From the IMG/VR virus record IMGVR_UViG_3300007754_000852: DNA of 64,000 bases. One strand, written 5' to 3'. This DNA is from a virus. Taxonomy: Duplodnaviria > Caudoviricetes. Every line of letters begins with the position of its first letter. Position 1 is the stretch's first letter. The translations under genes and the position numbers were made by a program. Shown here in pieces: positions 21,595 through 61,936 of the stretch. The notes beneath the pieces were generated by a model. The model was not told where the DNA came from. It worked only from the letters and a program-made list of their open reading frames with translations, and did no database searches.

Positions 21595-22079
21595 TTATCT
21601 CTCTCACTATCATCCTTTAACATCGAATCATTAGAAAGATCATCAAGATAATCAAACTGTAGCTTCTGAAGATTGCATGTAAAAAACGGATCCTTCTCTT
21701 CAAATTCCTTTAGATACTTTTCATCTATGATTGTCTGAAATGTTATGACTCCGCTATCTTTCATCTTTTTTACATAGAACGGATTATCATCATAATAAAC
21801 AGATATGTTATGAGATCTTATCTGATCTAGCTTGTGATCCGCCATTCTCTTAAAATGATCAAGGGTCATATCTGATTTATCATACTCAAAGCCGCACAAA
21901 ATATCATCATACATATCTTCAGTGATTTTCAAGCTATTCAGACCTTCAGATATCTCATTTTTTCTAGAAGCAGGTGTTCCAGTTACTATGTAGATCTTTC
22001 CCTTCCAAAGTCTTATTAGCTCTATAAAAAAGTCAGGAGAATATGAAAGCGTGTCGTGAAAATCAATTCCAATGTTCAT
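21591..22079 (-). CDS. HAD-superfamily phosphatase
   Basis: IGIDFHDTL (motif I), VTG (II), K (III), YYDDNP (IV); upstream ORF extension overlaps tRNA-Ser, so start at 22079. Confidence 0.85.
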   Translation of the reverse strand: MNIGIDFHDTLSYSPDFFIELIRLWKGKIYIVTGTPASRKNEISEGLNSLKITEDMYDDILCGFEYDKSDMTLDHFKRMADHKLDQIRSHNISVYYDDNPFYVKKMKDSGVITFQTIIDEKYLKEFEEKDPFFTCNLQKLQFDYLDDLSNDSMLKDDSERDK

Positions 22080-22105
22080 CTTGCGCACCTTTTTAAAGAT
22101 AAATA

Positions 22106-22193
22106 TGGCAGTGAGGGTGGGATTCGAACCCACGGTGCCTTACAACACTCAGGTTTTCAAGACCTGCGCCTTAAGCCTCTCGGCCACCTCACT
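22106..22193 (-). tRNA. tRNA-Ser(UGA)
   Basis: AGTGAGG/CCTCACT acceptor, G73-CCA, CAGGT-CTTGAAA-ACCTG anticodon arm, long V-arm, TTCGAAT T-loop. Confidence 0.95.
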
Positions 22194-22198
22194 AGTTG

Positions 22199-22265
22199 TG
22201 GAGCCTCCGGTCAGATTCGAACTGAGAACTGGCCGCGGAGATTCTAACCACTGAATTAAGTGCCC
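22199..22265 (-). pseudogene. Chimeric anticodon-less tRNA remnant
   Basis: 5' GGGCACT plus intact D-arm, only 14 nt to the T-arm (canonical about 23), 3' acceptor CGGAGGC-T-CCA does not pair with GGGCACT. Confidence 0.75.
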
Positions 22266-22271
22266 TGAGAA

Positions 22272-22358
22272 TGGAGCTCAGAGTGGGATTCAAACCCACG
22301 ACGTACTTTCGTATCAGGATTACAAAACCTGTTCCTTCGATCACTCGGACATCTGAGC
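22272..22358 (-). tRNA. tRNA-Thr(UGU) with non-canonical long variable arm
   Basis: GCTCAGA/TCTGAGC acceptor, U73-CCA, anticodon loop TTTGTAA, V-arm TAC-GAAA-GTA, T-loop TTTGAAT. Confidence 0.75.
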
Positions 22359-23105
22359 ATTAAAATTTTTATACTTACTATAGCCTCTCCTGAAGCAATG
22401 TTCATCATAAAATTCTGGCATCAATCGTCTCAATCGCCTGCCTGTAACTTGAGAAACTTCGCCAAAACGTTCGCTAAGCTTTTCTACCCACCCAAACTTT
22501 GAAAAATCAATTTCTCCAGATTCGTGTAAATCTTTTACTTTCTCTACGAACTTCTTATTAAACTCTTCTTTCAATTCTTTCAAGGTCGATCTTTCTTTCT
22601 GATATTTTTCAAAATCCTTGTTTCCTTTTCGAATTCTAGCTGACGTTTTCTTGTTGCTTTTCCTGCCCCAGTTTCGAAAATTTGAAGTTAGTGCATGACA
22701 ATTTGGACACAAAACCCTGAGATTATCTTTTGAATTATTCTTATGATTTCCATCAATGTGATCGATCTCTAGTATTGAACTTCCACACTTTCTCGTTTTA
22801 TCAAACCCACACTCTGAACATTTGAAATTTACTTCTTGGATCAAAATATTTCTTTTAATGGCCCATCCCACTTCGTTCCATGATCTTTTGCAGAATCGAT
22901 TATGAGCTGCTCGCGCCCTGTGTGTATCAAACTGTCTACTACACTCATCACATTTATGATTTCCTAGCGCGTTTAAATCTCTACGCCTTTGTATTTTTCG
23001 ATTTTTTGATCCTTCTCCATTACAAGCTACTATATGCTTACTAATATTATTAGCACTAAAATAGTCATTGCACAACTCGCAGTGTTTCATTTTGTTTGCT
23101 GACAT
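22341..23105 (-). mobile_element. HNH endonuclease (putative homing endonuclease) with zinc-finger motifs, inside the tRNA cluster
   Basis: CSECG...LEIDHIDGNHKNNSKDNLRVLCPNCHA; CELC and CDEC fingers; 3' end overlaps tRNA-Thr. Confidence 0.92.
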
Positions 23106-23155
23106 ACATATCTATTATATAGACAATTCGAACTTTTGTTTAGGATAAGATAAAG

Positions 23156-23182
23156 TGCAATAGGCCACTATGCGACGGAGGC
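23156..23182 (-). pseudogene. Orphan 5' half of a tRNA (probably Thr)
   Basis: GCCTCCG-TC-GCAT-AGTGGCCTA-TTGC-A; acceptor strand is 7/7 complementary to CGGAGGC in the 3' half at 22199-22232. Confidence 0.75.
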
Positions 23183-23218
23183 AATAAGTAAAAGAACGAA
23201 AAGAACGAGCTGTCTAAC

Positions 23219-23635
23219 TTACGAGAGCGTGGTCTCGGTGATCTCAACCCTGAAGGTTGTCTCATTGATATACTCTGGCTCCCACAGCTCATCAGCGTGG
23301 CACTGAAAGAACATCACGAGATCACTCAGGCACGGCTCACCGTCAGCGTGGAGGTCAGCCCACTCAATCCCTGCATTGATCCGAGCAGGGATGTCACACC
23401 ACATGTCCTCCTCATTCCAGCTGTCATAGAGGTACATCTTTGTATACTCCTTTACAAGACAACGCTCAGCGTCCTCGCGGCTCTTGAACGTGCCGACAAC
23501 GTTAGAGTATGTCTCAGCACGCTTGTAACAGTCGATCTCATCGAATTTTGTCACGGTATACACCGTCTCAACGGCGTCTTCCACCTCAACATTATCTGTT
23601 TCCTCTGCTGTATTTTTAAACCTAACTGTGATCAT
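23219..23635 (-). CDS. Hypothetical protein
   Basis: 138-aa ORF with GGGAG SD, visibly higher GC than flanks. Confidence 0.65.
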   Translation of the reverse strand: MITVRFKNTAEETDNVEVEDAVETVYTVTKFDEIDCYKRAETYSNVVGTFKSREDAERCLVKEYTKMYLYDSWNEEDMWCDIPARINAGIEWADLHADGEPCLSDLVMFFQCHADELWEPEYINETTFRVEITETTLS

Positions 23636-23671
23636 ACTATTTCTCCCTTATGTTGTTTTGATAGCAAAATT

Positions 23672-23756
23672 TGGTAGGCACGGTAGGACTCGAACCTACA
23701 TGCACCAATTACCCTAGTTTTATGCACGGTATATAAGACCGCTGGGATACGTGCCC
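23672..23756 (-). ncRNA. D-armless tRNA-like RNA with UAU anticodon loop
   Basis: GGGCACG/CGTGCCT acceptor, A73-CCA, perfect T-arm, GCGGT-CTTATAT-ACCGT arm, only 5 nt in place of the D-arm, 26-nt extra arm. Confidence 0.75.
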
Positions 23757-23775
23757 AAATAATTCATCTATGTCA

Positions 23776-23804
23776 ATTATATTCTAATCGTTACACATTT
23801 ACAC
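23776..23804 (-). promoter_or_regulatory. Class I promoter upstream of the D-armless RNA
   Basis: GTGTAAA tgtgtaacgattagaa TATAAT. Confidence 0.75.
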
Positions 23805-23811
23805 GAAAAAG

Positions 23812-23886
23812 TGGCTGGGGCGGGAGGGGTCGAACCTCCAGCTTCGGCATTAACAGTGCCGCGTTCTGCCATTGAACTACACCCCA
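23812..23886 (-). tRNA. tRNA-Asn(GUU)
   Basis: TGGGGTG/CGCCCCA acceptor, G73-CCA, CGGCA-CTGTTAA-TGCCG anticodon arm. Confidence 0.95.
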
Positions 23887-24132
23887 TCACTGTTGCTCAT
23901 TCTCATCAGAAGTAAAAGCCTCACCGATGATCTTGCTGATGCCCTTGACATATCCTGGATTATGTGTGTTGTTGACATCAAGCCAGACTCTGACCCAGTC
24001 ATCCCAGACGACTTGGATCTTATCGAGTGGATAGACCTCCATGACTGTTCCAAGTTTGCCTGTTTTTTGACATTGAACTCTGTCACCGTACAGATAGTTA
24101 TTTGACATCTGTGTTAGCATCTTCTTTTTCAT
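23887..24132 (-). CDS. SH3/KOW-like small protein
   Basis: YLYGDRV...LGTVMEV...IQVVWD. Confidence 0.7.
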   Translation of the reverse strand: MKKKMLTQMSNNYLYGDRVQCQKTGKLGTVMEVYPLDKIQVVWDDWVRVWLDVNNTHNPGYVKGISKIIGEAFTSDENEQQ

Positions 24133-24143
24133 GATATATCCTT

Positions 24144-24172
24144 ATTATACACAATAGGCAAAGAAATTACAC
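24144..24172 (-). promoter_or_regulatory. Class I promoter
   Basis: GTGTAAT ttctttgcctattgtg TATAAT. Confidence 0.75.
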
Positions 24173-24173
24173 A

Positions 24174-25244
24174 CTATAGCAACTTAATGTGAGTGGAGCT
24201 TTCAATCGCTCCTGATGATGTCTGACAGATGAATCTTGCCTTTGCATGAAGCTCATCGATGTTTATTGCGCCGGTATATGACAAACCTGATCTGATTCCT
24301 GCGCCTATCTCTCTTAAGACGCTATCGACAGACCCCTTTGTCTGAACTATGGTTGACACTCCCTCAAGAGATGACGCGTGACCTCGCCAGTCAATTTGAG
24401 CCTCTGCAGATGCCATTCCACGATAGGCCTTATACGTCTTATCACCTTTATAAATTATCTCACCTGGAGATTCAAGTGTGCCTGATAACATTGACCCTAG
24501 CATTACAAAGTCTGCACCTGCCGCAAGAGCTTTGACGATATCTCCGCTATTTTTAATTCCGCCATCCGCAACAATCTGTACAGATCCAGCAAACTCTGAT
24601 GACGATATGTCAAGAATAGATTGAAATGTTGGAACACCATGACCAGTTTGAATTCGAGTGGAACATATCGATCCACCTCCCACACCTACTCTAACACTTG
24701 TCGCGCCCCACCTTGACAGGTCATCAAACCCTTCTCTTGTTGCAACATTTCCTGCCATGATATGAACATCTCTAATCTCTTTACGAAGAGCCTCAAGAGC
24801 AGTTTTCATCATTGTGTGATGACCATGAGCAACATCAACACATAGAACTTTTACACCTGATCTCACTAGCTCTACTGCTCTATCAACATAATCACCTGTT
24901 ATTCCAATAGCTGCGCCAACATTTTTTACTCCATTCCTTCGTGCGATCAAAACCTCAGACACCTGATCGTCGATTGTATTGTATCTATGAATTATTCCCA
25001 TTCCACCAGATAGGCACATCTTCTCTGCCATAGCTCCGCAAGTTACAGTATCCATTGGGCTTGAAAAAATAGGAAGACCTAATCGACCGACCCTCTCCAA
25101 AGATGATCCTATGTCTATCTTAGACCTGCTTCTAATTTCAGAGTACTGTGGAACCAACAGGACATCATCAAAACAAAGGCCTGTCATAAATTTTTCATAA
25201 TTTTTCTTACTAATAAGCATGTGATCTCCCGCAATATTTCTCAC
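24174..25244 (-). CDS. guaB: IMP dehydrogenase / GMP reductase family protein (no CBS pair)
   Basis: [33 protein letters not shown] catalytic Cys, ADGGI, YRGMAS; IMPDH vs GMPR not resolved. Confidence 0.88.
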
Positions 25245-26857
25245 ACAAAGCTTTTCTTAAACTCTTCAGGAAACATATCTCTATTCTGTCTAAAGAATCT
25301 TTCCCAGTCAGAATCTAGAATGTACGTTACAGCACTATCATCTTCTGATCTTACACTTCGTCCTGCAGACTGAACTATCTTTTTTGCAGTCTGTAGGGGA
25401 TACCATCCTTTCCACTTATTCATTCTCTTCTTTATAAGCGGATCTCCAAGATAGGGATATGGAATCTTCATTATGATCTGAAATCTTGATAGATCACCGT
25501 GAAGGTCAACACCCTCAGACATTGAAGGTGATAGTAAAACTGTCGGCTCTTTTGATCTCATGTGCTTTCTTAGAATCTCATCCCTGTTTTCACTAGTATG
25601 AATTAAAAGCCTCTTTGACCTAATGTGACTCTTTAGATATTTTGCAATTCGATAAGTGTGGCAGTGAATAACTCCCTTCGAATTCTTGTGTTCCTTTAGA
25701 ATTTCTCTAACCGCTTGCGTCATTTTCGGAAGAGACATATCAATGTTTTTAGCACTCATACTTCCAATCGGATATGATATCACGGGTCGATTCTCAACAG
25801 CAAACGGTGAGGGAATTGAAATAAATGCGACATCAGACTCATCAAGACCTAGAGATCTACAAAATGTCTTGTGATCTAATATCGTCGCTGACATCATAAG
25901 AATCTTATCACCCAACCTGAACAGATATTCGTCAGCAAAAGGAGACACATCAATTGCCTTGAATACAAACTTCCTCTTCGATCGACCGTATGCGCTGACA
26001 CTATCCATCACCCAGTTATCTTTATCGTATACCTTGAGAAACTTTTCAATTTTTCCAACGTGAGACTTTAGCATGTCATACTGCTTTGAAAGTGATGCAA
26101 ATTCCTTAATTCTGCTTTTAAGACCCGTCTCTTTAAGCGTCTTATCCATGTGGCTAAGCTGTGATTTGATCTTAGGAAAATATGTCTCCTTCATCCACTT
26201 CACAACCTGAAACTGTGTGGTGTGGACAGGCCATGATATCTTCAATGCGTGCTTAACAAACCTCTCAGAGACTGTTACTTCAACAAACTTACTCAGCTCA
26301 GATTCAATATTGTGACACTCATCTATCACAAGAACGCGTCTAGGGGTTATCTTTCTAGAAAATGCTGCTTCTGTTAGAAAATATGGAAAATTTGTAACAG
26401 ACGAAGGTGAATCTAGAAACTTTTGTTTTGCATTTTTGTATGTGCAATTATATGTGCACACCTTAAAGAAGCGACTGTCTTTGTCTTCATTTCTTATTAG
26501 CCTCTGCGATTCTTGACATGAATTTTTTTTATGATATGAGCACTTATAATTTGACGAAGACTTTATTGACTTCATGCTCCCACGACGGCATCCGAAGTCA
26601 TTTTCATATTGATCTTGCAAGATCTTTTGAGTCGTTACAAAATATGATCCAGGAGAATATTCATCGACACTGCCAAGATTGTTATTTAAATATCTTGAAA
26701 CAGTTAGTCCAATTGCTGATTTTCCTGTTCCAGTTCCTGACTCTAAGATAACTAGCTTTTTTTCATTGTTGATAAATGCATTTAACGCAAAGTTAATTGC
26801 TTTAACCTGACAATCTCTGATCTTTTCGTGTGGAAATAATTTAGTATAGTCAAACAT
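25241..26857 (-). CDS. DinG/XPD-family SF2 helicase
   Basis: SGTGTGKS, Cys cluster, IDECHN, MSATI, EGVDL, KIPYP, QSAGRSVRSEDD. Confidence 0.93.
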   Translation of the reverse strand: MFDYTKLFPHEKIRDCQVKAINFALNAFINNEKKLVILESGTGTGKSAIGLTVSRYLNNNLGSVDEYSPGSYFVTTQKILQDQYENDFGCRRGSMKSIKSSSNYKCSYHKKNSCQESQRLIRNEDKDSRFFKVCTYNCTYKNAKQKFLDSPSSVTNFPYFLTEAAFSRKITPRRVLVIDECHNIESELSKFVEVTVSERFVKHALKISWPVHTTQFQVVKWMKETYFPKIKSQLSHMDKTLKETGLKSRIKEFASLSKQYDMLKSHVGKIEKFLKVYDKDNWVMDSVSAYGRSKRKFVFKAIDVSPFADEYLFRLGDKILMMSATILDHKTFCRSLGLDESDVAFISIPSPFAVENRPVISYPIGSMSAKNIDMSLPKMTQAVREILKEHKNSKGVIHCHTYRIAKYLKSHIRSKRLLIHTSENRDEILRKHMRSKEPTVLLSPSMSEGVDLHGDLSRFQIIMKIPYPYLGDPLIKKRMNKWKGWYPLQTAKKIVQSAGRSVRSEDDSAVTYILDSDWERFFRQNRDMFPEEFKKSFV

Positions 26858-26909: not shown

Positions 26910-26996
26910 TGGTAGGGCGAGAGGGACTCGAACCCTCAAGGGCAAATTGCCCAGCGGGTTTTAAGCCCGCCTCGTAGACCATTCCGACATCACCCC
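26910..26996 (-). tRNA. tRNA-Leu(UAA), intronless
   Basis: GGGGTGA/TCGCCCT acceptor, A73-CCA, GCGGG-CTTAAAA-CCCGC, long V-arm. Confidence 0.95.
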
Positions 26997-34803: not shown

Positions 34804-36715
<1,912 letters not shown>

Positions 36716-57430: not shown

Positions 57431-58334
57431 TTATGTGCGCAGAGTTTAAATTCATTCTAATTCTCGCAGATGTACAATTTACACCAATTCTTTTCCAACA
57501 TTCCGACGCAAGATAGTAAAGAAACCTTAAGTCGTGTTCAAACAGCCTGACAACATCGCATGATCTTATCACACAATGAAAATCCATTATTTTATTTCTC
57601 TGACTAACTTGAATAAATGATATACAAGAATCATCAGTGTATACAAACCTTCTAGAAAAAATATCTTCCTTTCTCAGATACTCATTTTCTCCTGACATCT
57701 CTGATTCTATCTTTTTAAGAAGTGCTAAGAATATCTTTATGTAGTATTCTGACTCTGGCTCAAATTCTAAACTTTTTGGTGTTGCTTCCCTAAATTCTCC
57801 GTCGTCATGCAGTGTCAGCTGGAGCGGGAAGACCTCACTCCTCTCTGTCTGTCTTACAACCTTAGCTACAATACCTGCAACATCTTTGAGCTGAAATTTT
57901 TCATGTGACGTTAATTCATCTATAACATGATCAGCTATATCATTTATTGGTGAGCTTTCAGATGTTATTCTTACAGCTAACGGATGATCATTTAAACGCT
58001 TAAACTCTTTTTTAAACGACCTATGAACAGACTTTAAAGATCTAGCGTCGTGGATCTCATCTCCTCTCTTTTCAAATCTCTTCTTTATTACCCTAAACGG
58101 CAGATCGATGATAACATACCTGTTATTTAAATTGTACATCTCTCTGTGTAGATGGTCTTCCATATAGTCAATAGACCTACCATACATCTCTGAAAACACC
58201 TTTCTAGATAGCTGTGATCTATCCATGAGGTGCCACCGATACCCAGTTTTTTTATGAATCTCCCGAATCAGAGACGTCTTTCCTGAACAGTCTGGACCCT
58301 CTACAAATATTGTATGTGCTGGAAATGATAACAC
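57423..58334 (-). CDS. dNMP kinase fused to a minimal thymidylate-synthase/dCMP-hydroxymethylase-fold domain
   Basis: N-term EGPDCSGKT, DRS; C-term SRR...SCISFIQ...RSCDVVRLFEHD...SAHI. Confidence 0.8.
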   Translation of the reverse strand: MLSFPAHTIFVEGPDCSGKTSLIREIHKKTGYRWHLMDRSQLSRKVFSEMYGRSIDYMEDHLHREMYNLNNRYVIIDLPFRVIKKRFEKRGDEIHDARSLKSVHRSFKKEFKRLNDHPLAVRITSESSPINDIADHVIDELTSHEKFQLKDVAGIVAKVVRQTERSEVFPLQLTLHDDGEFREATPKSLEFEPESEYYIKIFLALLKKIESEMSGENEYLRKEDIFSRRFVYTDDSCISFIQVSQRNKIMDFHCVIRSCDVVRLFEHDLRFLYYLASECWKRIGVNCTSARIRMNLNSAHIIE

Positions 58335-61300
58335 TATGCCACGTTCACCTGTTTCATCTTATATGACGACGTAGAACACCCCCACGATTCACTGGACGAA
58401 ACCTCAGCCAGCCATATTGTGTACAAGCCTGGGACAGTTTTAAACTTCGTCCACACGCGAAGCCAGGCGCTTTCTGAATTATTGTCACATACCTTCATTC
58501 TATAGAACACCTTTCCATTTTTTGTAGTTCTCTCTTCAATAGATTGAATGCAGAACCATGCAACTGTCTTCTCGCTTCCACTCATGCTAACAACTGACTT
58601 CACGCCAGACTCATTTATCTTTTTCATAAGCTGTGGAGGAAAAATTAGATCCTCATCTGCACCTGCCATTAGATCAACACACATCTCAATTTTTTCAGAC
58701 CTTGACCAGTCGCTAAGATCGTGACTTTCAAGAATCTTCTCGTTGATAAAGACAGGAACTCGACCTGTATCTTTTATCATTCTCTTCACAGCTGTTTTTG
58801 TCATACCGTGTCTACCCTTCTTAAGAAGATCATAATTTCCAACAATTATCTCATGAAGCTGTCTATGATTTAAGATCTTTCCACTTTTCATCTCATCAAG
58901 AGATCCAAATGCCTCAACCTTACAAAGTGAATCGAAACACGTCTTATTCATCTTTGAAGGTTTCCACGTTCCTTCATCGGTAAATAGCATCTGGTCTATG
59001 CATGTAAATGGCCTTCGCATCATTATTTCCTGAACTGCTGACTTACCCACACCCTTTATTGCTGTGAGAGGAGGAACAAATCCTTCTCGATCATCACTGT
59101 AAACCCAGACGTCAGATGATGTATTGATGTCAGGAGGAAGAAACTTATATCCAAGAGATTTTATTTCCGCCATTATCTTTCCAAACTTTGGTGAGCCGTT
59201 CCACGTCTGAAGGCATGTCGCCAGCCACTCTTTTTCATAATATGTGTGAAGCCATGCAGAGTAATATGAGTCAACTGCATACGATACAGCGTGACTTGCG
59301 TTAAAGCCATATCCTGAGAAATATTCTATTGTCTCATATAGCTTCTCGGCCTTTTCCCTATCCATTCCGCTTAGGTTGACTGACCCATCTACAAATTTCT
59401 TTCTAAGATCAATTCTTTCCTGAACCTTTGCTGCGTTTGAATCAAGAGATTTCTTTACAAGAGTCTTTCTCATCTTGTCAGACTCACCTTTATCAAACCC
59501 TGCTAGCTTCTGTGCTAACATCATAAACTGCTCTTGAAAACACAGATAGGAATATGTCTTGCCTGTAACCTCCTCTATGACAGGATGGTCGTATGATATT
59601 TTCTTACCGGCATCAACTTCTTGCTTAGTCTTTACATACTTCTTATCGACCTTTGCTGCTAAAGGTCCTGGACGATATATTGCGGTAATTGTAGCAAGAT
59701 CATCAATCGATCGTGGCTTTGCATTTTGACAAAACTTTCTTGCACCAGAATTTACAAACTGAAAGATTTGAACGAATCGCCCACCATGATACACATATTC
59801 CCACACCCTTTGATCATCCATGTCATGATATCTGCTGTTTAAGTGATCATCAAAGAACTTATTTATCTGATCGAATGAAGGATTTTCAACACCTTTCTTT
59901 CTTAAAACTAGCCTAATGGTGTCCTCCACCATCTTCAATGTCGCAAGACCAAGAAAGTCAAACTTTAGAAATCCATTCTCTTCTAGATGCCTAAAGTTCA
60001 TTCCTTCAGACCACGGTGTCTGCAACTCACCTCTGACTTTGACTATCGGCATGTGGGTCTCAAGATCAGGACACACCAAGACGCCGCCAGCGTGTCTGCC
60101 AATAGACCTCAACTCCATAAATAGTGTTTGAACATGCTCAGAAACCTTAGGGTATTTTTTCATAAACTTCTGGTATGGTTCACTATATTTCATGCAATCC
60201 TCATGAGTCAAAACATATGTTGATTTTTCCTCGTGGTCTCCCATAGCACGAGGCATCACCTCTCTTTCTAAAGGGTTTGTGAGCTTATTGACTTCATCAA
60301 ATGGAATCCCGTAAAACTTAGACACATCTTTGATCAATGATTTGAGTTTTAATGTATTAAAATTTGATACAGGAATTACAGAATCGTCTCCAAAGAGCTC
60401 TCTTGACACATCGATTAAAACATCTCGATCTCCGACGTCTGTATCAATATCAGGCCAGCTTGCTTTATGAAGACCCAAAAATCTCTCAAAGAGAAGATTA
60501 TACTTTATTGGATCAACATGAGTTATTCCTAAGACATAATTAACAAGACTACCCGCACCTGATCCCCTTCCCGGACCTATCAGGGTTTGATTCTTAGCCT
60601 TATCAAACACTTTAGTTAAGGTTAAAAAGTAGTTTTCAAACCCTAGTTCTTTAATGACAGAAAGCTCTTCTTTGACCCTGACGAGATATTCAGGCTTCTC
60701 ATGAAGGTCTGACTTTATCATTCCTTCCTTTACCTGATCAACTAATTGTCCGAATGCTGACCTTTGGGGTGTTGTAAAGTCTGGAAGTTTTGCGCTGTTA
60801 CCGTCAAACCAAACCTCATCACACATATCCCACGCAATGCCATAGGTTCTCCCAATTGAATCCTTTACTGTGTTCTCATGACCGCGATAGAAGTCATATT
60901 GATCATAGCCTTTCTTAAATGACTCCCACATCTGTTGAGCATTCTTTGGGTATAGCTCGCACTTTAGCTCACTCTTCTCTGGAAGTTTTGGCATCTCATC
61001 ATCTCTAGATCCCATTCTTCCTAAAATTTTATACATCTCTCGTGCCTCCCACATCTCAGGCCTGCAATAATGTGAGTCAGCAGTTGAGATAAGCGGGATA
61101 CCAGTTTTATCTGACAGCTCTAGAAGACATCGATTTGTAAGGTGTTGTGCGACAAGATCGTTAAATTGCAACTCTAAAAAGAAATTTTCTCTGCCAACAG
61201 CATCAACAAATCTATCAGTCATGTTCTCAAGCTTTCTCATCACTGACTTGAGAACATAGGGATCATCAACTAATCCTGGTGATAGCTCATCAAATTGCTT

Positions 61301-61936
61301 ATCTGGAAATTCCTGGAATATGTGACCTGATGCTCGGCCTCCCACACATGCTGTAGATACAATAAGCCCATCAGAATTTTCCTTTAGCATCTTGAAGTCA
61401 ATCCTTGGAAATCTATAAAACCCTTCCTTATATGACATCTTAATAAGCCTAAAAAGATTTTGGAGACCTTTGAAATTTTTCGCTATAACAACAAGATGAT
61501 ATCTCCTCTTCCACTCTGGGTATTCACCTCTATCTTTCTTTGTCTCATTTTCATTTTCAACAATGAGACCCTCACTTTCGTCTCCGTCATCTACAGAGAT
61601 CTTTCTTTTGGTCTCTCTCTCAAGCCTAACCCTCTCACGATGCTTATTGTAGTCATTTCTCCATTCTGATAGATCATCAACGAAATAGCACTCACATCCG
61701 TATATGTGCCTATACTGCTTCCCTTTTGTCTTTAGCTTCTTTGCATAGTTATGCGCATGAGCTGCTGAATTCATGTGACCGTGATTTGTTAAGGCTAGAG
61801 AATTCATTCCGTTCTCAAGAATGAAATCGATGTGCTCATTAGGATAGCCTAGACCGTCATAGACACTTGATCCATCATGTGCATGTAATCCGACAAATCG
61901 TCTGGGCGGAGAAATTTTATTAATTGACATTAGCAT
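58334..61936 (-). CDS. dnaE: DNA polymerase III alpha subunit (family C)
   Basis: PHP LHAH...TNHGH...TADSH; GRGSGAGS; PDIDTD; GRHAGG; KFDFLGL; FSGYGFNASH. Confidence 0.96.
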   Translation of the reverse strand: MLMSINKISPPRRFVGLHAHDGSSVYDGLGYPNEHIDFILENGMNSLALTNHGHMNSAAHAHNYAKKLKTKGKQYRHIYGCECYFVDDLSEWRNDYNKHRERVRLERETKRKISVDDGDESEGLIVENENETKKDRGEYPEWKRRYHLVVIAKNFKGLQNLFRLIKMSYKEGFYRFPRIDFKMLKENSDGLIVSTACVGGRASGHIFQEFPDKQFDELSPGLVDDPYVLKSVMRKLENMTDRFVDAVGRENFFLELQFNDLVAQHLTNRCLLELSDKTGIPLISTADSHYCRPEMWEAREMYKILGRMGSRDDEMPKLPEKSELKCELYPKNAQQMWESFKKGYDQYDFYRGHENTVKDSIGRTYGIAWDMCDEVWFDGNSAKLPDFTTPQRSAFGQLVDQVKEGMIKSDLHEKPEYLVRVKEELSVIKELGFENYFLTLTKVFDKAKNQTLIGPGRGSGAGSLVNYVLGITHVDPIKYNLLFERFLGLHKASWPDIDTDVGDRDVLIDVSRELFGDDSVIPVSNFNTLKLKSLIKDVSKFYGIPFDEVNKLTNPLEREVMPRAMGDHEEKSTYVLTHEDCMKYSEPYQKFMKKYPKVSEHVQTLFMELRSIGRHAGGVLVCPDLETHMPIVKVRGELQTPWSEGMNFRHLEENGFLKFDFLGLATLKMVEDTIRLVLRKKGVENPSFDQINKFFDDHLNSRYHDMDDQRVWEYVYHGGRFVQIFQFVNSGARKFCQNAKPRSIDDLATITAIYRPGPLAAKVDKKYVKTKQEVDAGKKISYDHPVIEEVTGKTYSYLCFQEQFMMLAQKLAGFDKGESDKMRKTLVKKSLDSNAAKVQERIDLRKKFVDGSVNLSGMDREKAEKLYETIEYFSGYGFNASHAVSYAVDSYYSAWLHTYYEKEWLATCLQTWNGSPKFGKIMAEIKSLGYKFLPPDINTSSDVWVYSDDREGFVPPLTAIKGVGKSAVQEIMMRRPFTCIDQMLFTDEGTWKPSKMNKTCFDSLCKVEAFGSLDEMKSGKILNHRQLHEIIVGNYDLLKKGRHGMTKTAVKRMIKDTGRVPVFINEKILESHDLSDWSRSEKIEMCVDLMAGADEDLIFPPQLMKKINESGVKSVVSMSGSEKTVAWFCIQSIEERTTKNGKVFYRMKVCDNNSESAWLRVWTKFKTVPGLYTIWLAEVSSSESWGCSTSSYKMKQVNVA

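What the first reader, a model, noticed from the sequence alone, without database searches (positions are those of the whole stretch)
23672..23804. D-armless tRNA-like RNA (UAU loop) with a rearranged cloverleaf and its own promoter
The acceptor stem, A73-CCA, T-arm and an anticodon arm (loop CU-UAU-AU) are well formed, but only TCCCA replaces the D-arm. A 26-nt extra arm 3' of the anticodon (GCAT...GTGC stem) carries a D-loop-like AATTGG in its loop. CTAGGGTA in that loop can pair with TATCCCAG near positions 8-15 (7 of 8 pairs), suggesting a pseudoknot that rebuilds the core with the D-element relocated. A consensus class I promoter lies 19 nt upstream. UAU would read the rare AUA Ile codon without lysidine (TilS), or the RNA could be a decoy.
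Basis: partly seen in the sequence, partly recalled or inferred. Interest (0 to 1): 0.8.

Follow-up and report, generated by a model that had tools for sequence, protein, structure and literature searches.

The report
Phage isoleucine tRNA with re-threaded D-arm
This 82-base gene in a marine phage looks like an intact isoleucine tRNA (anticodon UAU, codon AUA) whose D-arm is rebuilt from two strands on either side of the anticodon arm, a non-cloverleaf wiring shared by over a hundred phage arginine and isoleucine tRNAs that a standard tRNA finder (ARAGORN) mostly misses.

Summary
It lies on the minus strand, 23756 to 23675, with an encoded CCA to 23672.

**Structure.** The acceptor stem, anticodon arm (loop CUUAUAU) and T arm are intact, and A73 and CCA are present. 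UCCCA stands where the D hairpin should be. A GCA/UGC-closed arm follows the anticodon arm.

**Family.** It belongs to a large family: 98 sequences score at least 40 bits against my covariance model, and 131 distinct members were parsed from viral contigs, Felix O1-like, Vequintavirinae and Asteriusvirus phages, and tRNA arrays in MAG contigs.
- All four helices covary, including a 3-bp helix (CNN right after U8-A9-U, paired with NNG just before UAAnUGG) that encloses the anticodon arm.
- In the window's subtype the extra stem covaries too, so the pseudoknot is real.

**Identity.** Every member has an Arg or Ile-type anticodon.
- The base after UGG is A in 66 of 67 Arg members and U in 26 of 29 Ile members, matching the position-20 identity elements.
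- All 31 Ile-type members (29 Ile plus 2 CAU) have A73.

**Reading.** Most likely this is a working tRNA-Ile(UAU). AUA makes up 37% of the window's Ile codons.

**Not shown.**
- The "consensus promoter" is only a perfect TATAAT.
- There is no RNA evidence.
- I found no paper describing this layout.
- This scan has noted the same family before on other DNA.

The parts
23750..23756 (-). Acceptor stem, 5' strand GGGCACG (positions 1-7).
   Evidence: Pairs 7 of 7 with 23676-23682 (one G-U). All 7 pairs covary in 98 relatives, 99.3% paired.
23747..23749 (-). U8, A9 and a U that would lie opposite the U after GGG.
   Evidence: UA is present in all parsed members by selection. The third base is U in 58 of 69.
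23744..23746 (-). CCC, the 5' strand of the rebuilt D stem. It runs straight on through A (23743) into the anticodon stem, as positions 23-25 and 26 do in a normal tRNA.
   Evidence: Pairs with GGG at 23712-23714. In the family the first pair is C-G in 92 of 98, the second is CG 39 / GC 35 / UA 21 / AU 2 with none unpaired, and the third is paired in 74 of 97. In the window's subtype the helix is 100% paired.
23726..23742 (-). Anticodon arm: stem GCGGU/ACCGU, loop C-U-UAU-A-U, anticodon UAU at 23735-23733.
   Evidence: Rfam alignment. All 5 pairs covary. U33 was required by the parser; A37 is present in all 69 parsed members.
23723..23725 (-). GCA, the 5' strand of the extra (variable-arm-like) stem.
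   Evidence: Pairs with UGC at 23702-23704. In 17 subtype members the pairs are GC 12 / CG 5, CG 13 / GC 4, and AU 11 / GU 4. Long-linker Arg members show GUC/GAC, AGGC/GCCU, CGCU/AGCG and CACU/AGUG.
23715..23722 (-). Linker UAAAACUA inside the extra arm's loop.
   Evidence: Length and sequence vary between subtypes, 3 to 12 nt between the anticodon stem and the NNG strand.
23712..23714 (-). GGG, the 3' strand of the rebuilt D stem (the place of positions 10-12).
   Evidence: Covaries with 23744-23746.
23705..23711 (-). UAAUUGG, the D-loop-like element. Inferred equivalents: U13, A14, A15, N16, U17, G18, G19.
   Evidence: UAAnUGG was part of the search patterns. 91 of the 98 model hits carry it and the rest carry close variants. 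The match to D-loop positions is inference.
23702..23704 (-). UGC, the 3' strand of the extra stem. The U at 23704 holds the 'position 20' place.
   Evidence: The base after UGG is U in 26 of 29 Ile and 2 of 2 CAU members, and A in 66 of 67 Arg members. Bacterial identity sets list U20 for Ile and A20 for Arg (PMC9976931).
23700..23701 (-). AU just before the T stem. Inferred equivalents: A21 and U48.
   Evidence: AU is present in 67 of 69 members. The equivalence is inference.
23683..23699 (-). T arm: GUAGG UUCGAGU CCUAC.
   Evidence: Rfam alignment. 98.6% paired, and 4 of 5 pairs covary.
23672..23682 (-). Acceptor 3' strand CGUGCCU, discriminator A73 (23675) and encoded CCA (23674-23672).
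   Evidence: A73 in 31 of 31 Ile-type members (29 Ile plus 2 CAU). CCA is encoded in 34 of 69 members.
23776..23781 (-). TATAAT hexamer 19 nt upstream of G1. A possible -10 box, not shown to be a promoter.
   Evidence: Sequence. Not called by the promoter scan. TATAAT occurs 33 times on the minus strand and 8 times on the plus strand.

Best explanation
This is a working elongator tRNA-Ile with anticodon UAU that supplies the phage with a decoder for AUA. It keeps the acceptor/T-arm domain and the anticodon arm of an ordinary tRNA, but the D arm is threaded differently.

**Shown by covariation**
- After U8-A9-U the chain runs straight into one D-stem strand (CCC), then A, then the anticodon stem.
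- The partner strand (GGG), with a D-loop-like UAAUUGG attached, comes after the anticodon arm.
- That partner strand and loop lie inside the loop of a short GCA/UGC arm at the variable-arm position.
- CCC/GGG pairing around the anticodon arm rebuilds a D stem stacked on the anticodon stem. Together with the GCA/UGC stem this makes a pseudoknot.

**Inferred**
- UAAUUGG stands in for A14, A15, G18 and G19 and touches U8 and the T loop.
- The AU before the T stem stands in for A21 and U48, so the L shape and its length are kept.
- The host IleRS charges it, using A73, the anticodon, A37 and the U at the position-20 place.
- RNase P and the other processing enzymes see a normal acceptor/T domain.
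- It is transcribed either with the upstream tRNA-Asn or from the TATAAT 19 nt upstream.
For: 1. **Intact gene.** All helices are paired, the T loop is UUCGAGU, U33 and A37 are present, and A73 and CCA are encoded.
2. **Family membership.** 73.5 bits, E 1.5e-19, against a model built without the window. 98 hits reach at least 40 bits in 92 loci, while ordinary tRNAs in the same loci score about 35 bits or less.
3. **Covariation.** 96.6% of cells are paired, 19 of 20 pairs change on both sides, and 0 of 500 shuffles reach the observed score. The D-like helix shows four pair types at its middle pair with no unpaired cell. In the window's subtype both crossing helices covary.
4. **Identity elements track the anticodon.** Anticodon-blind patterns returned only Arg (67) and Ile-type (31) anticodons. 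The position-20 base is A in 66 of 67 Arg members and U in 26 of 29 Ile and 2 of 2 CAU members. A73 is in 31 of 31 Ile-type members. These match the published bacterial identity sets (PMC9976931).
5. **Members fill gaps.** In 56 tRNA arrays with at least 8 ARAGORN tRNAs, only 4 of 59 members repeat an anticodon that ARAGORN also finds in the locus.
6. **Codon demand.** AUA is 278 of 742 Ile codons (37%) in the window's long ORFs. The phage's other tRNAs (Ser UGA, Thr UGU, Leu UAA) also match favoured A-ending codons.
7. **Selective conservation.** Only the tRNA is conserved at DNA level between the window and other phage loci that carry close relatives.
8. **Promoters in relatives.** Relatives in L270, L291 and L333 have TTGACA-N17-TATAYT ending 11-12 nt before G1.
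Against: - No transcript, charging or decoding has been observed for this gene or any relative. The window's DNA was found only in marine DNA metagenomes.
- The RNA-library contigs that cover a Felix O1-like relative are thin and may be DNA carry-over.
- The three-dimensional equivalences (A14, A15-U48, G18, G19, A21) are inferred from sequence only.
- The third pair of the D-like helix is unpaired in about a quarter of members.
- In this subtype the position-20 U is itself paired in the extra stem, so its role as an IleRS determinant is uncertain.
- C29-G41, listed among the E. coli Ile identity elements, is G29-C41 here, and A38 is U38.
- An unmodified UAU anticodon might also read AUG.
- The host and its IleRS are unknown.
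Confidence: 0.8

Rival explanations
1. It is a tRNA mimic used as a decoy or sponge rather than in translation. It would soak up a host tRNA-targeting nuclease, toxin or modification enzyme that acts on tRNA-Arg and tRNA-Ile. Alternatively it is a working tRNA whose main advantage is that the rewired core escapes such a host factor.
For: The layout is confined to two amino-acid identities and is found in phages and phage-like tRNA arrays. Many bacterial defences cut tRNAs, and phage tRNAs are known to counter them (titles and abstracts, for example PMC10264068, PMC11464382, PMC11555353). A changed core is a plausible way to escape recognition.
Against: A pure decoy would not need A73, an encoded CCA, synthetase identity bases that switch with the anticodon, or a 7/5 acceptor/T domain. 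It would also not be expected to fill the missing anticodon in arrays or to match codon demand. No defence system specific for both tRNA-Arg and tRNA-Ile was identified here.
Confidence: 0.12
2. It is a decayed tRNA gene that lost its D arm and gained an insertion, and has no function.
For: Low Rfam score (34.2 bits). ARAGORN gives a distorted fold. The single-sequence folding energy is no better than shuffles (z -0.46).
Against: More than a hundred distinct relatives in unrelated phages keep every helix through compensatory changes, including the two helices peculiar to this layout. Flanking DNA is not conserved while the gene is.
Confidence: 0.02
3. It is an ordinary tRNA gene interrupted by an intron or insert that is removed to give a normal cloverleaf.
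For: About 26 extra nucleotides sit between the anticodon and T arms.
Against: Removing the extra arm would still leave no D arm. The D-loop-like bases lie inside the extra piece. ARAGORN in intron mode finds nothing. Short-linker members (75-79 nt) have no room for an insert yet keep the same wiring.
Confidence: 0.01

Closest known systems
Canonical bacterial and phage elongator tRNA-Ile and tRNA-Arg (Rfam RF00005)
   Same: 7-bp acceptor stem, 5-bp anticodon stem with a 7-nt loop (U33, A37), 5-bp T stem with a UUCRANU loop, discriminator and CCA. Synthetase identity bases are present (A73 and U20 for Ile, A20 for Arg). Members sit in phage tRNA arrays beside ordinary tRNAs.
   Different: There is no D hairpin between positions 9 and 26. 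One D-stem strand follows U8-A9 and leads directly into the anticodon stem. The other strand, with the D loop, lies after the anticodon arm. The secondary structure is therefore a three-way junction (plus a pseudoknot in the window's subtype), not a four-way cloverleaf.
Metazoan mitochondrial D-armless tRNA-Ser(AGY) and other truncated mitochondrial tRNAs (reviewed in PMC9976931, PMC4394434)
   Same: No D hairpin. A short connector sits between the acceptor and anticodon stems. The anticodon-side helix is extended.
   Different: The phage family keeps a D-loop-like UAAnUGG and a canonical T loop, so the elbow contacts are probably kept. It has normal tRNA length (73-91 nt), occurs in phages of bacteria, and is limited to Arg and Ile. 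Its extension helix is formed by a distant strand across a bulge of 3-12 nt.
Class II (long variable arm) tRNAs: Leu, Ser, Tyr, Sec
   Same: In the window's subtype a base-paired arm emerges between the anticodon stem and the T stem.
   Different: Class II tRNAs have a normal D arm, and their variable-arm loop has no core role. Here the arm's stem is only 3-4 bp and its loop supplies the D-stem strand and the D loop. Most family members have no such stem at all.
Allo-tRNAs and (8/4) tRNAs (Mukai et al. 2016, PMC5389517)
   Same: Non-canonical tRNA architectures found in metagenomes and phages and missed by standard tools.
   Different: Allo-tRNAs change the acceptor/T split (8/4 or 9/3) and keep a long D arm. 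This family keeps the 7/5 split and rewires the D arm.
tRNA-Ile with anticodon UAU (Mycoplasma mobile tRNA-Ile2; phage T4 tRNA-Ile), recalled from memory and not checked here
   Same: A UAU-type anticodon reads AUA without the lysidine route.
   Different: Those are ordinary cloverleaf tRNAs.

Membership tests
tRNA (Rfam RF00005, canonical cloverleaf) | Score at or above the curated gathering threshold (29 bits). | tested here: met
   34.2 bits, reached only by deleting the D arm and inserting 23 nt.
tRNA (Rfam RF00005, canonical cloverleaf) | D hairpin (3-4 bp stem plus loop) between position 9 and position 26. | tested here: not met
   Only UCCC lies there.
tRNA (Rfam RF00005, canonical cloverleaf) | 7-bp acceptor stem, 5-bp anticodon stem with a 7-nt loop (U33, purine 37), 5-bp T stem with a T-loop consensus, and a discriminator. 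| tested here: met
tRNA (functional definition) | Transcribed, processed, aminoacylated and used on the ribosome. | not testable with these tools
   No RNA run holds the window. The relative's RNA-library coverage is inconclusive.
   UAUCCC ... GGGUAAUUGG. R1 scores 73.5 bits, E 1.5e-19. The helix covaries.
   UAU, U at 23704 and A73 at 23675.
Mitochondrial-type D-armless tRNA | Loss of the D-loop/T-loop elbow elements, with reduced size. | tested here: not met
   UAAUUGG and UUCGAGU are kept, and the length is 82 nt.
Class II tRNA | Long variable arm together with a normal D arm, and Leu, Ser, Tyr or Sec identity. | tested here: not met
   The extra arm is present, but there is no D hairpin and the anticodon is Ile.
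Bacterial tRNA-Ile identity set (PMC9976931) | A73, A35, U36, A37, C4-G69, U20, C29-G41, A38, U12-A23, G16. | tested here: inconclusive
   Present: A73, A35, U36, A37, C4-G69 and a U at the position-20 place. Absent: C29-G41 (G29-C41 here) and A38 (U38). Positions 12-23 and 16 cannot be mapped with certainty.

The most novel reading that the evidence does not exclude
Bacterial translation accepts a tRNA whose core is wired in a different strand order from the universal cloverleaf. Phages have spread this design because it frees their tRNA-Arg and tRNA-Ile from a host factor that reads the normal D arm, such as a tRNA-cutting defence nuclease, a toxin or a modification enzyme. The wiring would then be an anti-defence adaptation as well as a new tRNA scaffold.
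Probability: 0.25. Interest if true: 0.92.

Novelty: new variant of a known kind. Interest (0 to 1): 0.8.

Why it matters
[quoted passage not shown] Known departures are mostly shrunken mitochondrial tRNAs.

This is a full-size tRNA, apparently complete in its tertiary elements, with a permuted chain order. It is conserved across many unrelated phages, including well-studied coliphages such as Felix O1.

- If it works in translation, then RNase P, the CCA enzyme, ArgRS and IleRS, EF-Tu and the ribosome all tolerate a rewired core.
- That would matter for ideas on tRNA evolution and for the design of orthogonal tRNAs.
- Phage tRNA inventories and codon-usage studies made with ARAGORN, which missed 121 of 131 members here, undercount Arg and Ile tRNAs.
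- The restriction to Arg and Ile is an unexplained and testable pattern, possibly tied to phage-host conflict over tRNAs.

Tried and rejected
- **Megablast** of 22000-25500 against isolated phages: no match. The phage is only distantly related to isolates; its DnaE-type polymerase is about 30% identical.
- **Whole genome:** none is held for the window.
- **Intron reading:** ARAGORN in intron mode finds nothing at the site.
- **Folding energy:** z -0.46, not informative, as is usual for tRNAs.
- **Promoter scan:** finds nothing upstream of the gene. A search for the TAGAATATAAT word finds no more copies than chance.
- **RNA evidence for the window:** the full-length holders are all marine DNA metagenomes.
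- **RNA evidence for a relative:** two RNA-library runs have contigs across the element in a Felix O1-like phage. Depth is only 4-7 and the contigs reach 41 kb, so DNA carry-over cannot be excluded. This was not used as evidence.
rejected on relatives.
- **Neighbouring ORFs** 23219-23635 and 23887-24132: no PHROG or Pfam match. No link to a homing endonuclease was shown here, unlike in Felix O1, where an HNH gene abuts the relative.
- **Literature:** nine full-text searches found no description of this layout. Subscription-only papers are not covered.
- **Chromosomal origin of the MAG hits:** I considered whether these copies are chromosomal bacterial genes. Most sit in arrays of up to 25 tRNAs per 8 kb, which looks phage-like. 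This was not settled.

Full report
**What is there**

The flagged element lies on the minus strand, inside a small phage tRNA cluster. The cluster holds Ser-UGA (22106-22193), Thr-UGU (22272-22358), the element itself, Asn-GUU (23812-23886) and Leu-UAA (26910-26996), all on the minus strand.

Read 5' to 3' from 23756 to 23672 the element is: GGGCACG UA U CCC A GCGGU CUUAUAU ACCGU GCA UAAAACUA GGG UAAUUGG UGC AU GUAGG UUCGAGU CCUAC CGUGCCU A CCA.

- Rfam's tRNA model matches at 34.2 bits, but only by deleting the D arm (4 nt in place of 15) and inserting 23 nt in the variable region.
- ARAGORN calls Ile(tat) through a distorted 99-nt fold, and finds nothing in intron mode.

**The window's genome**

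The window comes from an uncultivated marine phage.
- It has a DnaE-type polymerase about 30% identical to any isolate, a GroEL and an HNH endonuclease.
- Its DNA is held by marine metagenome runs.
- No whole genome is held.

**Relatives**

A sensitive blastn against isolated phages found an 82-nt match with the same odd layout. It occurs in Felix O1-like phages, Vequintavirinae (UPEC06) and Asteriusvirus jumbo phages. There the anticodon loop is CUUCUAA, that is UCU, for Arg.

Two anticodon-blind pattern scans of viral contigs, and one of prokaryote genome contigs, brought in many more. I parsed them by structure and found 131 distinct members.

I then built a covariance model (R1) from 17 gap-free 79-nt members, with the window left out.
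- R1 scores the window at 73.5 bits, E 1.5e-19.
- 98 sequences in 92 loci score 40-100 bits.
- Ordinary tRNAs in the same loci stay at about 35 bits or less.

**Structure from covariation**

On the 98-sequence alignment:
- 96.6% of cells are paired.
- 19 of 20 pairs change on both sides.
- No shuffle of 500 reaches the observed covariation.
- Sliding the partners by one to three columns drops pairing to 38-48%.

Besides the acceptor, anticodon and T stems there is a fourth helix. CNN, right after U8-A9-U, pairs with NNG, right before UAAnUGG.
- The first pair is C-G in 92 of 98.
- The middle pair is CG 39, GC 35, UA 21, AU 2, with none unpaired.
- The third pair is paired in 74 of 97.

This helix encloses the anticodon arm and is separated from it by one base on the 5' side and 3-12 bases on the 3' side. 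In the window it is CCC (23746-23744) with GGG (23714-23712).

The window belongs to a subtype with an 11-12-nt linker. About 20 members are all Ile-UAU; the closest are L335, L272 and L289 at 80-85% identity over the gene only.
- In these, the first three linker bases pair with the three bases after UGG: GCA/UGC, GGA/UCC, CCA/UGG or CCG/UGG.
- On a 17-sequence alignment this stem is 96% paired with compensatory changes at two pairs, and the D-like helix is 100% paired.
It is 69% paired, no better than shuffles, and the register one column over carries the covariation.

Long-linker Arg members have 3-4-bp stems of their own (GUC/GAC, AGGC/GCCU, CGCU/AGCG, CACU/AGUG) that leave the A after UGG unpaired.

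**How it probably folds (inference)**

The strand CNN runs on through one base into the 5' strand of the anticodon stem. This is the connectivity of positions 23-25, 26 and 27 in a normal tRNA.

The strand NNG runs on into U-A-A-n-U-G-G, which reads like positions 13-19 (A14, A15, G18, G19). The connector almost always ends in AU before the T stem (67 of 69), which fits A21 and U48.

So the universal core bases all seem to be present and the D stem is kept at its usual length, counting the frequent U-U apposition (58 of 69). What differs is the chain path:
- 9 joins to the "22-25" strand.
- The "10-13" strand plus the D loop replaces the variable loop.

I could not test the three-dimensional fit.

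**Evidence that it is a working tRNA**

1. **Only two identities.** Every one of the 98 model hits has an Arg anticodon (UCU 36, ACG 16, CCU 9, UCG 4, CCG 2) or an Ile-type anticodon (UAU 23, GAU 6, CAU 2), although the search patterns did not fix the anticodon.
2. **Identity bases switch with the anticodon.** The base after UGG is A in 66 of 67 Arg members and U in 26 of 29 Ile and 2 of 2 CAU members. All 31 Ile-type members have A73. The published bacterial identity sets are A20, C35, U/G36 and A/G/U73 for Arg, and A73, U20, the anticodon and A37 for Ile (PMC9976931).
3. **Members fill gaps in arrays.** In 56 tRNA arrays with at least 8 ARAGORN-called tRNAs, only 4 of 59 members repeat an anticodon that ARAGORN also finds there.
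4. **Codon demand.** AUA is 37% of Ile codons in the window's long ORFs. The phage's other tRNAs also match favoured A-ending codons.
5. **Only the gene is conserved.** Flanks are not conserved between phages.
6. **Signs of transcription in relatives.** Some relatives have textbook TTGACA-N17-TATAYT promoters ending 11-12 nt before G1. Others follow another tRNA by a few bases.

**What is not shown**

- No RNA evidence exists for the window. Coverage of a Felix O1-like relative in two RNA libraries is too thin, and too genome-like, to count.
- The window's "promoter" is a perfect TATAAT at 23781-23776 with a weak -35, and the scan does not call it.
- TATAAT is four times commoner on the coding strand (33 against 8), so it may be real. 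tRNA-Asn ends only 55 nt upstream, though, so co-transcription is just as likely.
- Charging, decoding and modifications are untested.
- Some E. coli Ile identity elements (C29-G41, A38) are not present.

**Rivals**

- A pure decoy is hard to square with the synthetase identity bases, A73/CCA, gap-filling and codon demand.
- A hybrid idea stays open and is the most interesting reading: a working tRNA whose rewired core escapes a host factor. tRNA-targeting defences and phage tRNA counter-measures are well documented.
- A pseudogene or an intron-bearing gene is excluded by the covariation and by the short-linker members.

**Known or new**

Nine full-text searches found no description of this wiring.

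The nearest published unusual tRNAs are of different kinds:
- allo-tRNAs with 8/4 or 9/3 acceptor/T splits (PMC5389517);
- mitochondrial D-armless tRNAs (PMC9976931).

ARAGORN misses 121 of 131 members, which would explain the silence.

Earlier notes of this scan describe the same family on other DNA, including Felix O1-like phages and jumbo phages, and reach the same reading. They are unchecked AI notes. I reached the reading independently before opening them, and I tested its main claims here.

**Verdict**

This is a real and intact gene. It is a new member of a large, apparently undescribed variant of tRNA.

Noticed in passing
L014:9-84 (+): A Ser(UGA)-type tRNA-like gene in an rV5-like viral contig also lacks a D hairpin (UA UUAC A, then the anticodon arm). 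It has a 5-bp variable arm GAAGG/CUUCC whose loop UGGAAACAU carries a GG. This may be a second, separate design that moves D-loop function into the variable arm.
   Followed up: no
L114:3635-3709 (-): An odd tRNA-like sequence with normal acceptor and T arms, but a hairpin with an 11-nt loop and no clear anticodon arm.
   Followed up: no
L270, L291, L333 (70 nt upstream of their Ile-UAU members): Near-consensus TTGACA-N17-TATAYT promoters end 11-12 nt before the first base of the rewired tRNA. In other relatives the gene follows another tRNA by 2-10 nt.
   Followed up: partly
window, whole: TATAAT occurs 33 times on the minus (coding) strand and 8 times on the plus strand. This suggests many real -10 boxes or a strong strand composition bias.
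   Followed up: no
window 22341-23105 (-): An HNH endonuclease ORF (Pfam HNH, several PHROG HNH families) sits inside the tRNA cluster. Its 3' end overlaps tRNA-Thr (22272-22358) by 18 nt.
   Followed up: partly
L144, L188, L228, L242, L260 and other genome-contig loci: Contigs binned to Blastocatellia, Bryobacterales, Saprospiraceae and other MAGs carry arrays of up to 25 tRNAs in 8 kb that include a rewired Arg or Ile tRNA. They look like large-phage tRNA arrays binned with bacteria. Four Blastocatellia MAGs (L188, L228, L242, L260) share a near-identical Arg(UCU) member.
   Followed up: partly
L001:1144-1491 and L002:1143-1535 (-): In Felix O1-like phages an HNH/endonuclease VII gene lies immediately downstream of the rewired tRNA-Arg. 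The Felix O1 annotation lets this CDS overlap the tRNA's 3' end, and the tRNA itself is unannotated in most records.
   Followed up: no
window 34804-36414 and 58334-61936 (-): The phage encodes a GroEL-type chaperonin and a DnaE-type (Pol III alpha) polymerase only about 30% identical to any isolated phage.
   Followed up: no
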